Origin: Naegleria gruberi
Taxonomy: Eukaryota
Assembly (NCBI GenBank): GCA_000004985.1
Contig: GG738849.1
Direction: 5' to 3' (one strand)
DNA length: 64,000 nucleotides
Shown here: in pieces, positions 5,225-63,093 of the stretch
Layout of the letters: every line of letters begins with the position of its first letter
How positions within the stretch are numbered: the stretch's first letter is position 1
Position numbers and translations under genes: made by a program
Notes under the pieces: generated by a model
What the model saw: only the letters and a program-made list of their open reading frames with translations
Database searches by the model: none
What the model was told of the DNA's origin: nothing

Positions 5225-7636
5225 TTACTTTTTCGACAAAACTTTTTCGACAACACCTGCAGCAACAGTCTCGCCATTCACTCTAGCTGTTAAACGACCA
5301 AACTTGGCAAAATCAGCATACTTTTCAATTGAGATAGTATTATCAGTAACTATGGTTACAATAGCATTCGAATACTTTGGAATACATTTTGGTTTCTTTT
5401 CAAGTATTTCTAATTGCTTGTTTAAGGTACAAGTGAGTTTGGTAATTACAGCTGGAACATCAATGTTGTGCAAATGGAGAACAACATGAGCACCCTTAAT
5501 GATTGGTATCTTCATATCAAAGGTAGCAATTCTAGCCTTGAATCTATTTGTTACCTTAATTTCATTTCCAATAGGGCATAGAATTTGACCAACCATAAGC
5601 TTTTCTATATCAATAGATCCCAAACCAATTTCAACATTGTCACCAGCATAACCATGCTTGACAGGACTCTTATGACGAAGAATGGATTTAACTGTACAAA
5701 CTTCTCTAATTGGCATAATAACCAATTCGTCTCCTTCTGAGATAGTACCTGTTTCAATCTTACCAGCAACAGTAATACCAGTTGCCAATGATTTATAAAC
5801 ATCAGAAACCGACATTCTCAAGGCCTTTTCAATATCACGAGGTTTAGGTTCGAACTTGTCAATTCTTTCAACAACTGAAAGACCATCATACCATGAAATA
5901 GATCCTGATTTTGTGATCAAATTTTCTCCTTGAAGACCACTAGCAGGAATATAAAAAACATGACTACCGTCTTGAGTTTGGAATCCTATTTGTCTCATAA
6001 AGTCGTCCAATTGAGCTACAATACTATCATAACGTTCCTTTGACCATCCGATTGAGTCCAACTTGTTTACGACAACAATTACTTGTTCAACTCCCAAACT
6101 TCTAGCTAAAATCAAGTGTTCCTTAGTTTGACCTCCATTGGCAAATCCTGTTTCAAAACCACCAGGAGTTGAATCAATAACTAGAATAGCAAAGTCAGCT
6201 TGAGCAGCACCAGTAATCATTTTTGGAATAAAATCCTTGTGACCTGGGGCATCCAAAATGGTAACATGACGATTTGGTGTTTCGAAATATCGTACACCAA
6301 CATCCATTGTGACACCACGTTGTCTTTCCTCTTCATGTTCATCCATTACCCAAGCAAAGTGGAATGATGATTTACCAATTTCAACTGACTCCTTCTTGAA
6401 TTTACGTAAAGTATTCTCAGAAACATTTCCCAATTTGTAAAGTAAATGTCCCATCAAGGTTGATTTACCAGCATCAACGTGACCAATAATAACAACATTA
6501 ATACGCTTCTTTTCCTTATCCTCAGGAGCCTTGTGTTTAATACCAGAGGATTTAATTGGTTTTGGTGATTGTGGTTCCTTCTTTTCTGATTCATCAATAT
6601 CCATATCTAAAATTGTGGTATTCTTAGACTTATTCTTTTGAGGAGTTTGTTTCTTTTCAATTGGTTTAAAGTCCTCAAGAGGTTTGTGACTAGCTTTTTG
6701 TTGAGATCTAGCAGAACTAATGAGATCATCTGGAGATGGTGTGTCAAATTTAAAAAAATCAATTATAGGGGAAGAATTGGTGTTTGAATTATTAACATGT
6801 TTTTTGTTGTGGAGTATTTCATAATAGGGAGACAATCGTTCTGGAGAGTTTGCAAAAAATGACTTTACAAAGGATTCATTGGTGAGAGAGGTTGTAAGGC
6901 AACGACCAAAAGCTGATGCAACTGCTTGACCTGTTTCTTGATTCTTTTGATTTGACGAATCAGAGAGTGAGCTTTGTGAAAGCTTTTTGATAATTTCTCT
7001 TTCATCTTCACTCAAATCAGAATCATTATTGTCTAAATCTGTCTTGTTGGATTTTCTCATATTCTTCTTCTTGTTAGAAGAAACAGATCTGAGGTATTCT
7101 TCATCAGAGGACACTTCTTCCTCCGATGAGCTGATTGACTGTTGCACTTTTGGTGTTGATTTTACATCGCTTGGTGGTTGAGTGGAATTGGAAATTTTGG
7201 AACCTCTTCCTGCCGAGAGAGGAGTTGTGTTGTTATTATTATTACTGGAAGATGATGGTGTAGTGGTAGTAGAGTTATTATCTGATGTTGTTGGTGGTAT
7301 TGTAGAGGTTTCACTCTTTACGGTTATCACAGGCCCTGAATTATTCGTTCGCATCAATCCACCCCGTCCAGCACTTACTATTGGAGTTGATGATGATGTT
7401 GTTGTTGTTGTAGTTGTGGGTATATTACCACCACTCAACAGTGATGAACCTCTTCCGGCCGAATTATTGCTACTATTGTTTGCTATTGTGGAAACAACAA
7501 CTGGAGCACTGGAAATAACATTTCCTCTACCGATGCCAGCTACACTACTAACACTTGTTGGTTGTTGTTGATTGATGGTTGGTGAAGAATTGGCGTTTCC
7601 AAGAAGGAGCCCACCTCTTCCTCTACCAGCAGACAT
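5225..7636 (-). CDS. HBS1: HBS1-like translational GTPase of the eEF1A/eRF3/Hbs1 family, with an N-terminal S/N/T-rich extension carrying repeated SAGRG motifs.
   Basis: G-domain motifs [65 protein letters not shown] and NKLD are present. This block matches HBS1L (…[20 protein letters not shown]…[20 protein letters not shown]) more closely than eRF3. Single 803-aa ORF. Confidence 0.85.
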   Translation of the reverse strand: [803 protein letters not shown]

Positions 7637-17306: not shown

Positions 17307-17377
17307 GCATTAGTAGTGTAACGGTATCATACCAGCCTTCCAAGCTGGTGACCCGGGTTCGACTCCCGGCTAATGCA
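17307..17377 (+). tRNA. tRNA-Gly (anticodon UCC).
   Basis: GCATTAGTAGTGTAACGGTATCATACCAGCCTTCCAAGCTGGTGACCCGGGTTCGACTCCCGGCTAATGCA folds as a cloverleaf. The acceptor stem is GCATTAG/CTAATGC, the anticodon loop is CTTCCAA and the T-arm is GGTTCGA. No CCA is encoded. Confidence 0.9.
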
Positions 17378-20568: not shown

Positions 20569-21021
20569 CTCTTATTTTCTTTGTTCTTATTTTTTTCAAT
20601 TTTGTTATTTTTAGATTGAAATTCTTTCGTGTTGTTCTTTGTGTGTTTTAAATCAAAAATTTGTGCTGTTGGGAATTGTCCATTTCTCTTATTATTGTTG
20701 AAGATGAAAGGAAAAGTGTTATTATTAAACTTGAGAGCTACGGAAGGGATTCCGTGTGAGTGAGGATGAACTTGTTTGAAAATGCTCAATGAGTTTGAAA
20801 GTGGAATAATCCTTTGCACAGTCAACAGAACTTGTTTACAAATGTTCATTAGTCTGGTGTGAATTGGAGAACGCAAGATAATGGTACAGGCAGAGGTTTC
20901 CAAAACAGGAAATACAAAAAAAATTAAAAAATGAACATCATCTCACATATCTTAAATATCAAATTATGCAAAATATAGGGAAAATAATGAATGTTGAGCT
21001 AGAAAATACAAAAATTTTTAC

Positions 21022-21091
21022 TCGAGTGCCGGGAATTGAACCCGGGTCGCCAGAGTGACAGTCTGGAATGCTACCACTATACCACACCCGA
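21022..21091 (-). tRNA. tRNA-Asp (anticodon GUC).
   Basis: The minus-strand sequence TCGGGTGTGGTATAGTGGTAGCATTCCAGACTGTCACTCTGGCGACCCGGGTTCAATTCCCGGCACTCGA has a 7-bp acceptor stem, the anticodon loop CTGTCAC and the T-arm GGTTCAA. Confidence 0.85.
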
Positions 21092-42008: not shown

Positions 42009-45000
42009 TTATTTATTGAGCATTTCTTTCAAAGCATTCTTTTGTTCAGTGGTTAACATCTTTTCCAAGTGAGGTAATACTTGTTGATTGACTTGGCATA
42101 ATTCCTTCATCACTTGAGGAAGTATCTCAATAAGATTTACATTATTAATTGGATCTTTTGATGACAAGACATCGTCAAAGTACTCCTCTTCATCATCGTC
42201 AAAGTCATCATCAACAAGTTGATGTAAATAATCATCCTCAACATTAGAATCTGTACCCATAGGCTCACCACCATACAAGACACTTTCAGCAGAATATTCC
42301 TTCTTCTTGTCGTTTTCATTTTCCTTTGCTCTCACAAAAGCATCAACCAAAAGAACAAATGCATGAAGAACAAATGGCATTTGTCTTTCCTTTGTCTTTG
42401 ACTTGGATCTAGTTCTGTATTTTCCTGATGATTCCTTTTCAATTTCTACGGATACAGTAACTGTTCCCAAACGTTCATCTCCAGTTTGGAGCAATTTAGC
42501 CAAAGCTGTTGCTGTAACCTTTAACTTGTAAGCTCCAAAGAAAAATTGTTGATTCTTGGACCACTTATTCAAAAGACAAACTAGCCCATTAGAATCTCCA
42601 ACCTTGATTGATTCCAAAAGGTTGAACATTTGCACAACATCTTGATGATGGAAAAGCTTGGCAAACACAAAAACTATTGATTGAATGAAGATTAATTCTT
42701 CTGAGACATTCAATTTAACAATGCAAGCAGATAGAATTTTTCCAATAATTTCCATGTTAAGTGCAGTACCAAGCTTGGTAAAAATTTCAGTAATTAATTC
42801 GCCAACACCAAAAGCAGCTGATTCACTGAAATTTGGTTGCAACAATCTGTAAATATATTCCAATAAGAAGTGGAATGAAGAAACTTGGTGGTTTTGACTT
42901 GTAAATCTGTGTTGAACTAGAATTTCCTCACTCACATGAACAATGGATCTCAGGCATTCATTGATTTTTTGGATCCATGAAGGATCTTCATTGGAAAATC
43001 CAAGAGACATCAAACTAGGGAAGAGAGAATTCAAAATTGTAATAGAATCTTCCTTCTTTGCACGAACAATAATGGTATTAGACAAGTTGAGCAAATTCTC
43101 TACGAAATCTGATTTGGTGGCAGTTCCACTACTTGTGAAAATTTGAGCAATTCGTGGAATGACATTGTTAACGAGTTGAGCCTCAGTTTCTGGGATTTGT
43201 GCAAGCTTGTCGAATACATTAATAATATCACTTGAAATAGCATGATCATTAGAAAACTTGTCCAATTGATTCAACATAATTGAAATAACATTGGCGCTTT
43301 GAGGAACCACAACATGAGGTAAGAACTGCAATATTTAGAAATTTAGAATCACTCACACACATATAACAACTTACATTTACAAAAACAGCAATGCTTTCCA
43401 ATGGAATGTACATGGTTTCATCTGTTAAATCATCAACCAATTTACACATACAAAAGAGAATGTTTTGTAAAATCTCATCCTTTCCTTGTCCAAATGATGA
43501 GATGAGAGGTTCCAAAATTGGTGAATGTAAACAGAAAATTCTTGCAACTGCTTGACAAGAGTATAATCTCAATGGAAGTGGTTGTTGCTCGTTAAGGTGA
43601 TTTACATAAATAATAAATAATTGCTTGATCAGTTCAAGACTATTGATCTTGTATAGTTTGGTATTACTGATTTGTCCTAAGAAGAAGCTTGAACATTGGA
43701 TGGCTCTCGATTTCAAAAATTGCAAGCTTTCTGTGTTGACTTTCAAGTCATTTTGAACAAGTTGATTCATAAGAGATGGCAGATCGAAAATCTTTGGATA
43801 ATCTTCAATACTATCTCTGAATCCTGTAAAACTGGAAATACACATCAAGCAGGCTTCTCTGAGTTTCCACCAAGTACATGAATTAGAATTTTGAATATAT
43901 AAATTTTGTGATTCTTGCATTCTCTTGTGATATGCTTCAAGTAAACTTTCAACTGCTAAATTATCATAAGTATCATGGAAATCTTCAATCAATTTAGCAC
44001 AAGCAATTCTAATACTATAGCTGGAATATTGATTGTCTTCCTCAGAGACAAATTGTTCTGGTTCAGTTTCCCAAAGTTCTGTCATACTTTCTGGTAATTG
44101 AGAGTAACCAATTAATAAATAAATTAATTGAACCAAATTTGCCTTGCTAGAAGATAGCAATGTTGAAAGCTTTGGATTTAAAACAATTGTCGCCAAAAGT
44201 TCAATTTGTTGACAAATTACTGTTGTAAAGTTAACATTTTCACCTTCACTATCATATCTAGCTGCAATTTCTTTTGTTGGAATACCACTTTCAGATGGCG
44301 AAAGAACAGCATGTTTAAAGTAAGTTTCATATTCCTTTTCCAAAGAGATACAAGTTGATTGTAAAACAACAATGATTGCTTGTTGTAATGTTTTTCCAAA
44401 CTCTTTGATAAGTGTATTCATCATCTTGACACATTCCATCTTGAATGAGCAATCAGATTCAACATTTGGAATCGGTTTGCAAATTTCTCCTAACACTATA
44501 TTCATAGTTGGCTCCAAAGCAGTAGCCAATAATTTCTTTGATTCTTCAATGAGACGATCATCAATAACTCTTTCTCCCTCCTCTGGAGCTTCTTCATAAA
44601 CTCCATCATCCCCATAATCATCCACATACTCATCATCTTCATCAGTTACATCCCCTGATACCATAGCAATTAAAGAAAACATTTCTGAACAAACAGTAAG
44701 AGCTTTAGCTCTAATAATATCAGGTAATTGAGCATTTTCAGCAATTTTCAACATGTAAGGTACTAAAACTGGAAAAACGAAAATGGTATGCTTATCAGAG
44801 AAGTGTTGAGCAACAAGTGACAAACACTTGAGAGCACCCAATGATTGAGCAAAATTTTGTTGATTTGTTAAACCATTTTCATAAATATTAATTAAAATTT
44901 GAATCAAATCATTCCATTCCTCAGGAAATTCATGTTCAGCTGCCTCTGATATACTCATACCAAAAGCTGTATTAATTTTTGAAAGGAAAGCAGGAGGTGT

Positions 45001-45512
45001 ATCAACTTCAAAATCACCAACCATTAAACCCAAAGGAAGAAGATCCTTGAATTGTTTTTTCAAATCTGCTGATGTAATAGTATTCCAATGTGTTTTAATA
45101 TAACCCTTCAATAAAACTGCTGATAATTGTCTAACAGCAGGATTTAAAATAACATTCTTAAGTTGTGATTCTTGTTGAATAATTTGATGAAGAGGAAAGT
45201 GAATAGAACAATTAAACATGTTATTATCCGAAACACAAAATCTATTTCGGAATGGAATATAATCATAAAGTGATACATGTAAAAGTAAAATTCCATAATA
45301 TGAACATCGTGATGGAAATGATAATAATTCATTTTGTGCTCCATTAATTTCCTGTGGTGATACCATCACACCACCTCCAATCTTGTATAAACATTGAGCA
45401 AGAATAGAAAACTCGCGTTGGAGTTCTTCCATTGTGAGAGGTACAAATGAGCTGAAGGGTGGTACTACCGATGCATGTGATGATGAGGCGTGAAGCGGCG
45501 AACCAACAACTT
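42009..45512 (-). CDS. IPO9: Importin-9 (Kap114)-like karyopherin-beta with at least one intron (43380..43332, GTAAGT..TTGCAG).
   Basis: The N-terminal importin block RQLSAVLLKGYIKTHW matches importin-9 RQLASVILKQYVETHW. HEAT-repeat composition runs across the 757- and 440-aa ORFs, and the C-terminus has an acidic tail. Confidence 0.6.
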
Positions 45513-45659
45513 TTGGCATCATTTTTTTTCAACTTCAATTTTTTCCTTCTTTTTTCATTTATTATTTAAAACTGCGAAAGCTTAAAACCAACACAAGCCA
45601 AACTCTATTGAAGTAGAAGAACACTCGAAAAGTAACTTGGCAAGTTGAGAATAAATTTA

Positions 45660-61679: not shown

Positions 61680-63093
61680 ATGATGATTAACAATACTATT
61701 AACGCTCAAGACAATATTGCTCTCTACAAGTACAAGCAACAATTAGAACAATTGGAAAATTGCAAAGGCTTGGGAACATCTGTTATTACCTTGTTGGTTA
61801 GTTGCAAGACTTCATTGACTCAAGTTATTTCTCAAATGGATCAACGTTTGACAAAGTCTAACAATATCAAGTCGTGTATTTAACAGGAATAGTGTTCAAG
61901 TGGCTACAAGGACTGTTATATCCAGATTAAAGCTATTGAAACAGACACCTGCTAATGGTTTGGCAATTTTCTGTGGAATGGTAAATCCAGATTCTGCTCC
62001 AGGTTTATTCTCTGATGATGAATCTAGTTTGGTGGTTGATAACGGTTTAGAAGGCTCTGACAATAATGCACATGTTGATTTGAAGAAATTGTGTGTTATG
62101 ATTGAACCACCAAATCCAATTGACAGCAATCTTTACTATTGTGACGATTGTTTCCATGTTGAACAGTTGAGAAGTCAATTGCAAGAATTTAATTCTGGAA
62201 AAACTTATGGTGTAATTGTTATTACAGGTACAGGTACTTTGTATGGTACTTTACGTGGAAATACCAGTAGTATTTTACGTGAATTTTCTCATGAACTTCC
62301 AAAGAAACATTCTAAGGGAGGTCAATCTCGTGAAAGATTTGCTAGAAATAGAGAAATTGCCAAGAATGAATATCTCAAGATTATTGCAGAGAAGGCAAAT
62401 GGTTTATTCGTTTCTTCAGCTCTCAATGCTCCAACTGTTGATGCTATTATTCTTGCTGGATGTGCAGAATTGAAGAATGAATTACTTTCTCTCAAATCTG
62501 ATTGTTTAGACTATAGATTGAGAACTAGAATTTTAACTGTTGTTGATGTTGCATATGGTGGCAGACCTGGATTTTATCAAGCTATTCAACTTGCACAAAA
62601 TGAAATTCAAGATTCTAGATTCTTGGAAGAGAGTGAAACCATTCAAGAGCTATTGAATTTACTTTCCAAAGGATCCAAGGCTGTTGTTGGTTTGGAAGAA
62701 ACCATGTTTGCTATTGCAAGTGGTTGGGCTAGTAAGGTAATCTTGTGCGAAAAGCAATCATCCTTGAAGAGAGTTACACTCTCTGATGATTCTGTTCACT
62801 ATTTGGAAGAAGACAAGATTAAATTCTTATTGGAAAGAAATTCTGTCAAGGTTGCTAGAATTGAAAACCTTATTGATTATTTAGTTGACAATTACAAGAA
62901 AATTGGTATTGACAAGTTGTCTCTTGTTACTGATTGTACTAATGAGGGAAATATGTTTTTGAAGGGCTTCTCAGGTATTGGTGCTATTCTAAAGTTTGAT
63001 GTAAATGTTGCCTCTCTTCTCTCTGAGGAGAAGGATAACTTTGAAGCTTTTGAAGAGGAAGCCTACAATGAAGACTTGTCCGAATTCTACTAA
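61680..63093 (+). CDS. ERF1: Divergent eukaryotic release factor 1 (eRF1) with NIKS, YxCxxxF and GGQ motifs intact. The coding sequence is split by an in-frame TAA (61881..61883) with continuation in the +1 frame (ORFs 61680..61883 and 61852..63093).
   Basis: Frame 0 reads ...GLGTSVITLLVSCKTSLTQVISQMDQRLTKSNNIKSCI*. The +1 frame reads NRNSVQVATRTVISRLKLLKQTPANGLAIFCGMVN...YYCDDCFH...GVIVITGTGTLYGTLRGNTSSILREFSHELPKKHSKGGQSRERFARNRE...AILAGCAELKNEL...VVDVAYGGRPGFYQAIQL..., and is colinear with human eRF1 [38 protein letters not shown]...YLCDNKFH...KKHGRGGQSALRFARLR. The stop is TAA at 63091-63093. Confidence 0.8.

What the first reader, a model, noticed from the sequence alone, without database searches (positions are those of the whole stretch)
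61852..61900. eRF1 gene interrupted by an in-frame UAA with continuation in the +1 frame: candidate prfB-like autoregulatory frameshift (AUU UAA C)
The release-factor ORF ends ...AAT ATC AAG TCG TGT ATT TAA (N-I-K-S-C-I-stop; TAA at 61881-61883), directly after the essential NIKS motif. The conserved continuation (NRNSVQVATRTVISRLKLLKQTPANGL..., colinear with eRF1 helix alpha-3 and the YxCxxxF and GGQ regions) lies in the +1 frame. That frame is open only from 61852 (after a TGA at 61849-61851) through to 63093, so the two frames overlap for just 29 nt.

No plausible intron joins them: every GT..AG pair nearby is 41 nt or less, and the only candidate would delete the S of NIKS plus conserved residues. 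Reading AUU in the P-site, skipping U, then AAC gives NIKSCI|NRNSV..., with exactly the spacing of canonical eRF1 (16 residues between NIKS and RLKL).

This shift-site topology, with the P-site codon ending UU, an in-frame stop in the A-site and a +1 shift to UUU, is the same as bacterial RF2 autoregulation (CUU UGA C) and antizyme (UCC UGA U). If it is real, synthesis of the termination factor would depend on inefficient termination at its own internal stop. That would be a negative-feedback loop not previously described for eukaryotic eRF1, as far as established knowledge goes.
Basis: partly seen in the sequence, partly recalled or inferred. Interest (0 to 1): 0.85.

Follow-up and report, generated by a model that had tools for sequence, protein, structure and literature searches.

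The report
Frameshift-dependent eRF1 paralogue in Naegleria
Naegleria gruberi and related protists carry a second, divergent copy of the stop-codon-reading factor eRF1 that can be made full-length only if the ribosome slips forward one base at a conserved internal stop (NUU-UAA-C), the trick bacteria and giant viruses use to tune their release factors and apparently unreported for a cellular eukaryote.

Summary
The window is Naegleria gruberi. A 67-codon ORF ends ...NIKSCI-TAA (61881-61883), and the rest of an eRF1-family protein continues in the +1 frame to 63093.

It is not a sequencing error, an intron or a pseudogene. The same arrangement, [A/C/G]TT TAA C two codons after [N/R]IKS, occurs at 15 loci: N. 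lovaniensis, two other Naegleria, Willaertia magna and several deep metagenomic clades. Six further predicted proteins imply it.
- Both ORFs are under purifying selection (dN/dS about 0.1).
- The gene's strongest synonymous conservation is the 12 nt just 5' of the site.
- The internal stop is always TAA-C and the true stop always TAA-A.
- No conserved RNA structure was found.

1. N. gruberi also encodes an uninterrupted canonical eRF1 (P0193, 62% identical to vertebrate eRF1). The window gene, at 37%, is therefore a divergent paralogue and not "the" termination factor.
2. Precedents exist. Mimivirus and Megavirus eRF1-type factors use CUU UAG/UAA C, probably at another position, and plant eRF1 autoregulates through readthrough and NMD.

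Best reading: a programmed +1 "shifty-stop" frameshift couples synthesis of the paralogue to termination efficiency. No paper in the searched library describes it.

The parts
61680..61880 (+). ORF0: the first 67 codons of the eRF1 paralogue (N-domain start, GTS loop, NIKS at 61863-61874). The last sense codon is ATT (Ile) at 61878-61880.
   Evidence: Pfam eRF1_1 match. dN/dS 0.09 against the closest relative L004. An identical 67-aa ORF0 was called on an independent ENA contig (P0314).
61866..61877 (+). Conserved 5' block ATC AAG TCG TGT, the candidate 5' stimulator. TGT would occupy the E site when ATT is in the P site.
   Evidence: Highest synonymous conservation in the whole gene: majority-codon fraction 0.92 against a gene mean of 0.65. 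TCG is used once among the gene's 41 Ser codons, and it is here. ATC is used for 2 of 32 Ile codons. Across 24 window ORFs, TCG makes up 5% of Ser codons and ATC 15% of Ile codons.
61878..61884 (+). Shift heptamer A_UU UAA C: P-site codon AUU, in-frame UAA, then C at +4. Reading resumes at AAC (61882-61884) in the +1 frame.
   Evidence: [A/C/G]TT TAA C at the homologous codon at 15 loci. AAC rather than AAT in all of them, although AAC is only 22% of Asn codons in the window.
61881..61883 (+). Internal in-frame stop codon TAA in the weak TAA-C context.
   Evidence: TAA-C ends 1 of 24 long window ORFs and TAA-A ends 9 of 24.
61852..61883 (+). The only stretch where frame 0 and frame +1 are both open, so the frame change must happen here. 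In Willaertia magna the equivalent stretch is 14 nt.
61882..63093 (+). ORF1 in the +1 frame: NRNSV..., YxCxxxF, GGQ, the C domain and the acidic tail ...DLSEFY. It ends at TAA 63091-63093, followed by A.
   Evidence: The database protein P0001 (371 aa, starting at Met100) is an N-truncated model of this ORF. dN/dS 0.12. The true stop is TAA-A at the 12 loci where the following base is held; the 13th, L012, ends at its TAA.

Best explanation
The locus encodes a divergent paralogue of the eukaryotic class-I release factor eRF1. Its full-length synthesis requires a programmed +1 ribosomal frameshift.

Proposed mechanism:
1. Ribosomes start at 61680 and translate 67 codons.
2. They arrive with peptidyl-tRNA(Ile) on AUU in the P site (CUU-Leu or GUU-Val in relatives) and UAA, followed by C, in the A site. 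This is a poor termination context.
3. If a release factor acts, a 67-residue fragment is released and the mRNA may become an NMD target.
4. If termination is slow, the P-site tRNA re-pairs one base forward on UUU, or the first U of UAA is occluded. Asn-tRNA then reads AAC and the remaining 403 codons are translated, giving a complete eRF1-like protein (...NIKSCI-NRNSV...).

Output of the paralogue is therefore inversely coupled to cellular termination activity at UAA. That activity comes from the canonical eRF1 plus, if it is an active release factor, the paralogue itself. The result would be a homeostatic "reserve release factor" loop.

The likely origin is a single U insertion into an ancestral GUU|AAC (Val66-Asn67 of NIKSRVNR). 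That one change creates both the frameshift and a shifty stop able to correct it.

Shown here: the conserved anatomy and the selection on it. Inferred: frameshifting itself, its efficiency, and the feedback.
For: 1. Conservation.
- [A/C/G]TT TAA C lies exactly two codons after [N/R]IKS, with the continuation NRxSV in +1, at 15 loci. These are N. gruberi, N. lovaniensis, two Logan Naegleria, two samples of a metagenomic Naegleria-like species, two W. magna contigs, the five "RIKS" loci L008-L012, and the deep clades L013 and L014.
- Five further ORF0 peptides end ...RIKS[SC][ILV].
- P0056 carries the +1-frame read "SSRAFNRKSV".
- Every paralogue-type hit scoring above about 300 bits is N-truncated at this point.

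2. Both ORFs evolve as coding sequence in their own frames, with dN/dS 0.09-0.17.

3. The junction is collinear with human eRF1 and gapless. The 0-frame NUU codon encodes I, L or V, matching canonical Val66, so that codon is decoded and the shift occurs at the stop.

4. Selection acts at the nucleotide level.
- The synonymous-conservation maximum of the gene lies at codons -4 to +1.
- Rare codons (ATC, TCG, AAC, AGG) cluster at the site.
- The internal stop is TAA-C at all 15 loci. The true stop is TAA-A wherever the next base is held (12 loci).

5. A one-base deletion would restore a plain ORF. It is seen in no lineage, although the proteins have diverged to 32-45% identity.

6. The same heptamer is experimentally frameshift-prone in Mimivirus and Megavirus release factors and in bacterial RF2 (PMC3521657).
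Against: - There is no transcript, ribosome-profiling or peptide evidence. None of the short contigs could be shown to be mRNA.
- N. gruberi has an uninterrupted canonical eRF1 (P0193). The paralogue need not be a working release factor, and the loop is not simple self-regulation.
- No conserved downstream RNA structure and no Rfam element were found. Any stimulator is limited to a short 5' sequence whose role is untested.
- AUU and GUU P-site tRNAs re-pair on UUU at only two of three positions.
- The frameshift could be constitutive, a tolerated "frozen" indel in a non-essential paralogue, rather than regulatory.
Confidence: 0.7

Rival explanations
1. Constitutive, non-regulatory frameshift. 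A one-base insertion in a dispensable eRF1 paralogue happened to create a shifty stop. Ribosomes correct it at a fixed rate and the arrangement persists without any sensing role.
For: A canonical eRF1 coexists, so the paralogue may have tolerated the indel. The origin needs only one U inserted into GUU|AAC. No elaborate stimulatory structure was found. Euplotes shows that shifty stops can be evolutionarily neutral (PMC10235951 abstract).
Against: The site has been kept in every lineage sampled, although a one-base deletion would remove it. Synonymous conservation peaks at the site and rare codons are fixed there. The weak TAA-C context is invariant while the true stop is TAA-A. A frameshift of this kind has now arisen three times in release-factor genes specifically. 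The other 24 long ORFs in the window are intact, so this is not a genome-wide habit.
Confidence: 0.17
2. The mRNA is corrected before translation. Transcriptional slippage or RNA editing removes one U from the UUU run, so no ribosomal frameshift is needed.
For: The junction contains a T3 run. No transcript sequence was available to exclude this.
Against: Three T's are far shorter than known slippage-prone runs (established knowledge). What is conserved is a stop codon with C at +4 and a 5' block, which are features that matter to ribosomes, not polymerases. Mimivirus cDNA retains its stop at the analogous site.
Confidence: 0.04
3. A very short spliceosomal intron removes the junction.
For: GT..AG pairs that restore the frame exist, for example the 16-nt GTCGTGTATTTAACAG at 61871-61886. 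The same 16-mer pattern occurs in N. lovaniensis and W. magna.
Against: All 129 frame-restoring pairs delete NIKS or the invariant N-R-x-S-V. The AG is absent in the loci with TAA CCG (L005, L006, L008, L010, L013, L014). A genuine intron in this window is 49 nt with GTAAGT...CAG. The alignment to human eRF1 has no gap at the junction.
Confidence: 0.02
4. Sequencing or assembly error, or a pseudogene.
For: The extra base lies in a short homopolymer. The database models are truncated or split.
Against: The structure is identical at 15 loci from independent projects and technologies. These include two independent samples of one species (L005 and L006) and an independent contig with the identical N. 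gruberi ORF0 (P0314). dN/dS is about 0.1 in both ORFs. All catalytic motifs are intact.
Confidence: 0.01
5. Two separate polypeptides. ORF0 and ORF1 are translated independently and assemble as a split eRF1.
For: Gene callers annotate them as two proteins.
Against: There is no conserved start codon for ORF1. The first Met differs or is absent between clades (FCGMV against FCGLV..ATRT.. against ..AMNS..). The break falls inside the N domain immediately after the NIKS loop.
Confidence: 0.02

Closest known systems
Bacterial prfB (RF2) autoregulatory +1 frameshift, CUU UGA C
   Same: A short ORF0 ends at an in-frame stop early in a release-factor gene, and the rest of the protein lies in +1. The heptamer is NUU-stop-C, and four of the relatives have CUU UAA C exactly. 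The stop context is weak, with C at +4. The logic is that slow termination favours the shift.
   Different: RF2 is not homologous to eRF1. RF2 uses UGA, read only by RF2, whereas here the stop is UAA and a second, canonical eRF1 also reads it. The RF2 stimulator is a Shine-Dalgarno-like element pairing with 16S rRNA, which has no eukaryotic equivalent. Here only a conserved 12-nt 5' block is seen. The P-site codon varies (AUU, CUU or GUU).
Mimivirus R726 / Megavirus mg280 eRF1-type release factors (Jeudy et al. 2012, PMC3521657)
   Same: The protein family is the same (eukaryotic/archaeal class-I RF). Both use a +1 frameshift at CUU UAG C or CUU UAA C, and Megavirus has the identical heptamer. 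Both proteins are highly divergent from cellular eRF1.
   Different: The viral genes also need an upstream UGA readthrough, and there is none here. The viral shift must give a Leu-Ser junction. Together with the 25-30 kDa P2 product, that places it about 45-50 residues after NIKN, not 2 residues after NIKS (inferred). R726 is no closer to the paralogue than to canonical eRF1: 23.6% against 26.1% identity, and they group together in 7 of 100 bootstraps. The hosts here are cellular organisms, which that paper stated lack internal stops in class-I RFs.
Plant eRF1-1 autoregulation by stop-codon readthrough plus NMD (Nyiko et al. 2017, PMC5397192)
   Same: It is negative feedback of a eukaryotic eRF1 gene that uses a recoding-prone stop codon as the sensor of termination efficiency. 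NMD may be involved; N. gruberi has UPF1, SMG1 and SMG9 (PMC5709506).
   Different: The plant sensor is the natural stop codon and the 3'UTR of the canonical gene, and the event is readthrough. Here the sensor is an internal stop in a paralogue and the event is a frameshift.
Antizyme (UCC UGA U) and yeast Ty1/ABP140 (CUU AGG C) +1 frameshift sites
   Same: These are eukaryotic +1 shifts with a slow A-site codon. Ty1 and ABP140 share the CUU P-site codon, and antizyme is a sensor in a feedback loop.
   Different: Antizyme senses polyamines and has a 3' pseudoknot and 5' elements; no structure was found here. Ty1 uses a hungry sense codon, not a stop.
Euplotes genome-wide +1 frameshifting at internal stops
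   Same: A sense codon followed by UAA serves as a +1 shift signal in a protist.
   Different: In Euplotes this affects a large share of genes and is non-regulatory. In this window the other 24 long ORFs are intact, and the one other split ORF pair examined is explained by a normal 49-nt intron.

Membership tests
eRF1/aRF1 class-I release factor superfamily | Three-domain architecture (eRF1_1, eRF1_2, eRF1_3) | tested here: met
   Pfam: PF03463 E=1e-07, PF03464 E=1.6e-30, PF03465 E=9e-12 on the joined protein. Full-length alignment to human eRF1 structures, E=5e-72.
eRF1/aRF1 class-I release factor superfamily | Functional motifs: GTS loop, NIKS, YxCxxxF, GGQ | tested here: met
   GTS, NIKS, YYCDDCF and KGGQS are present and invariant among five heterolobosean sequences. 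NIKS is RIKS in the other clades.
eRF1/aRF1 class-I release factor superfamily | Peptide-release activity at stop codons with eRF3 | not testable with these tools
   Only sequence features are available: a GILRY-like GAILKF and the acidic tail DLSEFY.
Canonical (orthologous) eukaryotic eRF1 | It is the organism's conserved eRF1 orthologue, typically about 60% or more identical across eukaryotes | tested here: not met
   N. gruberi P0193 (438 aa, uninterrupted NIKSRVNR, KKHGRGGQSALRFARLR) is 62% identical to vertebrate eRF1. The window protein is 37% identical to both.
RF2-type autoregulatory +1 frameshift | An early in-frame stop, with the remainder of the release factor in the +1 frame | tested here: met
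   Stop at codon 68 of 471; 403 codons follow in +1.
RF2-type autoregulatory +1 frameshift | Shift heptamer of the form CUU-stop-C, conserved among relatives | tested here: met
   ATT, CTT or GTT followed by TAA C at 15 loci. C at +4 is invariant.
RF2-type autoregulatory +1 frameshift | Upstream Shine-Dalgarno-like stimulator pairing with rRNA | tested here: not met
   There is no purine-rich SD-like element. Instead ATC AAG TCG NGT is conserved at synonymous positions. Its mode of action is unknown.
RF2-type autoregulatory +1 frameshift | The internal stop is decoded by the factor the gene encodes, which closes the feedback loop | not testable with these tools
   UAA is fixed by the +1-frame Asn codon AAC, so its identity says nothing about specificity (inference). 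A canonical eRF1 also exists.
RF2-type autoregulatory +1 frameshift | Demonstrated frameshifting that responds to release-factor level | not testable with these tools
   This needs reporters, ribosome profiling or mass spectrometry.
Mimiviridae-type recoded release factor | UGA readthrough upstream of the frameshift stop | tested here: not met
   ORF0 runs from ATG to the shift site with no other stop.
Mimiviridae-type recoded release factor | Frameshift at the homologous position, or specific sequence affinity to the viral proteins | tested here: not met
   The viral Leu-Ser junction is inferred to lie about 45-50 residues downstream of NIKN. Identity is 30% over 236 aa. No grouping in the NJ tree. 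Two viral-contig scans found no relatives.
Euplotes-type pervasive shifty-stop decoding | Many genes interrupted by sense-codon-plus-stop +1 sites | tested here: not met
   24 long ORFs in the window are intact. The ORF pair at 42009-45522 is joined by a GTAAGT..CAG intron of 49 nt.
Antizyme-type +1 frameshift | Conserved 3' pseudoknot or stem-loop stimulator | tested here: not met
   RNAalifold consensus -0.34 kcal/mol with no covariation. Single-sequence z-score -0.47. No Rfam hit.

The most novel reading that the evidence does not exclude
An ancient family of eRF1 paralogues in Naegleria, Willaertia and several still unidentified protist lineages is expressed only through a +1 ribosomal frameshift at NUU-UAA-C. 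It would act as a termination-efficiency sensor and reserve release factor alongside the canonical eRF1. That would be a third independent invention of release-factor shifty-stop control, after bacterial RF2 and Mimiviridae, and the first in a cellular eukaryote. The stimulator would be a short 5' mRNA element or nascent peptide rather than an SD sequence or a pseudoknot.
Probability: 0.55. Interest if true: 0.85.

Novelty: new variant of a known kind. Interest (0 to 1): 0.8.

Why it matters
- **Convergence.** Frameshift-gated release-factor genes were thought to be confined to bacteria, and then to giant viruses. The Mimivirus paper (PMC3521657) states that eukaryotic class-I RFs lack internal stops and uses that to argue about viral origins. 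A cellular eukaryotic family with the same heptamer shows that the solution is reached repeatedly, and it weakens inferences of ancestry drawn from it.
- **A compact model site.** It offers a natural eukaryotic +1 frameshift site with no obvious RNA structure and a clearly delimited 12-nt 5' element. That is well suited to dissecting E-site and upstream effects on eukaryotic ribosomes.
- **A new biological question.** What does a second eRF1 do when it is made only if termination falters, and why is NIKS replaced by RIKS in most clades?
- **Annotation errors.**
  - The N. gruberi model is N-truncated.
  - N. lovaniensis has the gene split into two proteins.
  - The W. magna model invents an intron that deletes NIKS.
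  - Many metagenomic predictions start at a spurious Met.

Tried and rejected
- **Euplotes idea.** I first suspected Euplotes-type decoding in a ciliate. There are no C4A4 telomeric repeats, the window is gene-dense with long intact ORFs, and the best hit is Naegleria gruberi.
- **Giant-virus link.** Two scans of viral contigs, one with the heterolobosean alignment and one with Mimivirus R726, found no confirmed relative. R726, recovered from Fig. S7 of PMC3521657, is not specifically related, and its shift site is inferred to lie elsewhere.
- **Single-gene autoregulation.** I assumed the gene might be the only eRF1. This was rejected when one search returned the canonical N. gruberi eRF1 (P0193).
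- **RNA structure.** The alignment fold, the single-sequence fold and Rfam gave nothing.
- **Transcript evidence.** The ends of the short contigs (L004, L010, L012-L014) show no clear poly(A) tail. Accession searches for SRR17423268 and GCA_037189345 found no paper.
- **eRF3 linkage.** The GTPase at 5225-7636 is HBS1-like, not eRF3.
- **Phylogeny.** A rough NJ tree does not robustly recover paralogue monophyly (17 of 100 bootstraps), so the shared frameshift is the main argument for common descent. The first tree script timed out.
- **Literature.** Only six papers in the library mention both Naegleria and eRF1, and none concerns this feature.
Full report
**1. The observation**

The window is AT-rich (about 33% GC) and gene-dense, with long ORFs. 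At the reported site the sequence reads AAC AAT ATC AAG TCG TGT ATT TAA C AGG AAT AGT GTT.
- Frame 0 is open from ATG 61680 and ends at TAA 61881-61883, giving MMINN...TKSNNIKSCI*.
- The +1 frame has TGA at 61849-61851 and is then open to TAA 63091-63093. It encodes NRNSVQVATRTVISRLKLL..., YYCDDCF and KKHSKGGQS through to ...DLSEFY.
- The joined 470-aa protein matches all three Pfam eRF1 domains.
- It aligns with human eRF1 structures over its whole length with no gap at the junction: snnikscinrnsv against asniksrvnrlsv.

Every factual statement in the finding is correct.

**2. The organism and the database models**

[quoted passage not shown] That model starts at Met100, so it is N-truncated. 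Its relatives were also annotated as truncated or split:
- N. lovaniensis has two adjacent "genes", an 80-aa eRF1_1 fragment and a 376-aa protein.
- The Willaertia magna model bridges the site with an invented intron that deletes NIKS.

**3. The arrangement is conserved**

I fetched DNA for the relatives and read the junctions.

| Locus | Sequence at the junction |
|---|---|
| N. gruberi | TGT ATT TAA C |
| Close Naegleria (L004) | TGC CTT TAA C |
| N. lovaniensis and a second Naegleria (L001, L002) | AGT CTT TAA C |
| Metagenomic Naegleria-like species, two independent samples (L005, L006) | TGT ATT TAA C |
| W. magna, two contigs (L003, L007) | AGT CTT TAA C |
| Clade only 38-40% identical to N. 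gruberi (L008-L012) | ...RIKS AGT GTT TAA C |
| Deeper clade L013 | AGT CTT TAA C |
| Deeper clade L014 | TGT ATT TAA C |

In every case the 0-frame ends [N/R]IKS-[S/C]-[I/L/V]-stop and the +1 frame continues N-R-x-S-V.

Predicted proteins extend this further:
- Five more ORF0 peptides end ...RIKS[SC][ILV] (P0317-P0320, P0362).
- An independent ENA contig yields an ORF0 identical to that of N. gruberi (P0314).
- P0056 begins with the +1-frame read-through SSRAFNRKSV.
- All other paralogue-type representatives begin at a Met just after the site.

No member of this group with an uninterrupted frame was seen.

**4. Trivial explanations excluded**

*Error.* Fifteen independent loci rule it out.

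*Pseudogene.* dN/dS is 0.09-0.17 in ORF0 and in ORF1 for close pairs, and all catalytic motifs are invariant.

*Intron.* Several observations rule it out:
- All 129 frame-restoring GT..AG pairs delete NIKS or the invariant NRxSV.
- The 16-nt GT...AG seen in some species is absent where the sequence is TAA CCG.
- A real intron in this window is 49 nt, GTAAGT...CAG.
- In W. magna the two frames are simultaneously open for only 14 nt.

*Separate initiation of ORF1.* There is no conserved start codon.

*Transcriptional slippage or editing.* This cannot be formally excluded without transcripts. A T3 run is very short, however, and what is conserved, a stop with C at +4, is a ribosomal signal.

**5. 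Anatomy of the signal**

On a codon alignment of 11 genes, the window with the strongest synonymous conservation in the whole gene covers codons -4 to +1: ATC AAG TCG NGT NTT | AAC. Its majority-codon fraction is 0.92 against a gene mean of 0.65. Immediately downstream, Arg, Ser and Val codons vary freely.

In N. gruberi the codons at the site are rare ones:
- TCG is 5% of Ser codons in 24 window ORFs. It is used once among the 41 Ser codons of this gene, at the S of NIKS.
- ATC is 15% of Ile codons, AAC 22% of Asn codons and AGG 10% of Arg codons.

The internal stop is TAA-C at all 15 loci. The true stop is TAA-A at the 12 loci where the following base is held; L012 ends at its TAA. TAA-A is also the commonest context in the window (9 of 24), and TAA-C the rarest TAA context (1 of 24).

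No conserved RNA structure exists. RNAalifold gives -0.34 kcal/mol, the single-sequence z-score is -0.47, and there is no Rfam match.

The P-site codon varies only at its first base, giving I, L or V. That equals or conservatively replaces Val66 of canonical NIKSRV, so this codon is read in frame 0 and the shift happens on the stop.

UAA itself is fixed because the +1 frame needs AAC (Asn67). UAG or UGA would change Asn to Ser or Asp. The choice of stop therefore carries no information about specificity.

The simplest origin is one U inserted into an ancestral GUU|AAC.

**6. A paralogue, not the eRF1**

A profile search made for another purpose returned a second N. gruberi protein on a different 713-kb contig. 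P0193 is 438 aa, with uninterrupted ...GTASNIKSRVNRISV... and KKHGRGGQSALRFARLR.
- P0193 is 62% identical to vertebrate eRF1.
- The window protein is 37% identical to both.

The frameshifted gene thus belongs to a divergent paralogue family with its own signatures: KKH[SG]KGGQS[RK]ERFAR, LDYRL or MDYRL, and RIKS in most clades. A rough NJ tree does not resolve the family's position. The shared frameshift is the best evidence that it is one lineage. Apart from Naegleria and Willaertia, the host organisms are unknown (metagenomes, Logan assemblies, one unnamed NCBI assembly).

**7. Mechanism proposed**

With NUU in the P site and UAA-C in the A site, termination competes with a +1 event, either P-site re-pairing on UUU or occlusion of the first U, followed by decoding of AAC by Asn-tRNA.
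- High release-factor activity gives a 67-aa fragment, and possibly NMD. N. gruberi has UPF1, SMG1 and SMG9 according to PMC5709506.
- Low activity gives the full-length paralogue.

If the paralogue is an active release factor, this closes a homeostatic loop in which it serves as a reserve factor. The conserved 5' block may act through E-site tRNA stability (the E-site codon is always [A/U]G[U/C]), through mRNA-rRNA contacts, or through the nascent ...IKS[SC] peptide. None of this was tested.

The main rival is a constitutive "frozen" frameshift in a dispensable gene. I consider it less likely for two reasons. A one-base deletion that would remove the site never occurred across very deep divergence. 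Selection is also visible on synonymous sites and on the +4 base.

**8. Comparison with what is known**

- *Bacterial RF2.* It uses CUU UGA C with an SD-like stimulator.
- *Mimivirus and Megavirus.* Jeudy et al. 2012 (PMC3521657) showed that R726 and mg280, which are eRF1-type proteins, need a UGA readthrough plus a +1 shift at CUU UAG C or CUU UAA C. They stated that this mechanism was otherwise exclusive to bacteria and that eukaryotic class-I RFs have no internal stops. The 2016 recoding review cites only that viral case. From the R726 sequence in their Fig. S7, the required Leu-Ser junction and the sizes of their P1 and P2 products, the viral site lies about 45-50 residues after NIKN. That is not the heterolobosean position. 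R726 is also not specifically similar to the paralogue. I therefore infer convergence.
- *Plants.* Plant eRF1 is autoregulated through readthrough and NMD (PMC5397192).
- *Literature.* Searches combining Naegleria or Heterolobosea with eRF1 and frameshift terms found nothing on this feature. Only six papers mention both Naegleria and eRF1. The library covers open-access papers and bioRxiv only, so an earlier description elsewhere cannot be excluded.

**9. Verdict**

It is wrong about which gene this is, and it overstates the lack of precedent.

What is there is a conserved, evidently selected +1 shifty-stop site in a family of divergent eRF1 paralogues of cellular eukaryotes. It is a new variant of the release-factor frameshift theme. 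I rate the interest high (0.8). The reasons are convergence on the same heptamer in a third lineage, the unexplained role of a termination-gated second eRF1, and a compact signal that is directly testable.

Noticed in passing
window 5225-7636 (-): An 803-aa translational GTPase with a long low-complexity N-terminus. It is HBS1-like (469 bits to human HBS1L against 331 to eRF3a), so it is the partner of the eRF1 paralogue Dom34/Pelota and not eRF3. It lies about 54 kb from the frameshifted eRF1 paralogue.
   Followed up: partly
window 43328-43376 (-), between ORFs 43249-45522 and 42009-43331: A canonical 49-nt spliceosomal intron (GTAAGT...TTGCAG) joins two overlapping ORFs of an importin/karyopherin-like gene whose frames differ by +1. 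It is a useful reference for what real N. gruberi introns look like.
   Followed up: partly
L003 (W. magna JBEGDK010000063.1) and L007 (JBEGDK010000067.1): W. magna carries two copies of the paralogue. The L007 copy has further frame disruptions downstream, with ORF1 ending early at L007:3125 and an extra A-run near the start. It is either a decaying duplicate or has homopolymer assembly errors. The NCBI models P0006 and P0007 bridge the shift site with an artificial intron that removes NIKS.
   Followed up: partly
L008-L014 and proteins P0317-P0320, P0362: Outside Naegleria and Willaertia, the stop-codon-recognition motif NIKS is RIKS in every frameshifted paralogue. The residue equivalent to canonical Arg65 is always Ser or Cys (codon AGU, UGU or UGC). 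This could reflect altered stop-codon reading or a constraint from the E-site codon.
   Followed up: no
proteins P0331, P0335, P0337, P0343, P0355, P0366, P0367, P0397: Many canonical eRF1 genes from metagenomes give 70-77-aa first-ORF products ending ...NIKSRVNK or ...NIKSRVNR. A probable explanation is an intron two codons downstream of the position where the paralogue has its frameshift. I did not examine whether this proximity means anything.
   Followed up: no
window 17307-17377 (+) and 21021-21091 (-): Two tRNA genes, tRNA-Gly(UCC) and tRNA-Asp(GUC). They are the only Rfam matches in the window and are not related to the shift-site codons.
   Followed up: yes
window 24480-25268/25299-25787 (+), 28381-28965/29276-29698 (-), 4021-4446/4463-5197 (+): Other adjacent same-strand ORF pairs look like single genes split by short introns: an alpha/beta-hydrolase-like pair, a thiolase-like pair and a low-complexity protein. 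I did not check them individually for recoding.
   Followed up: no
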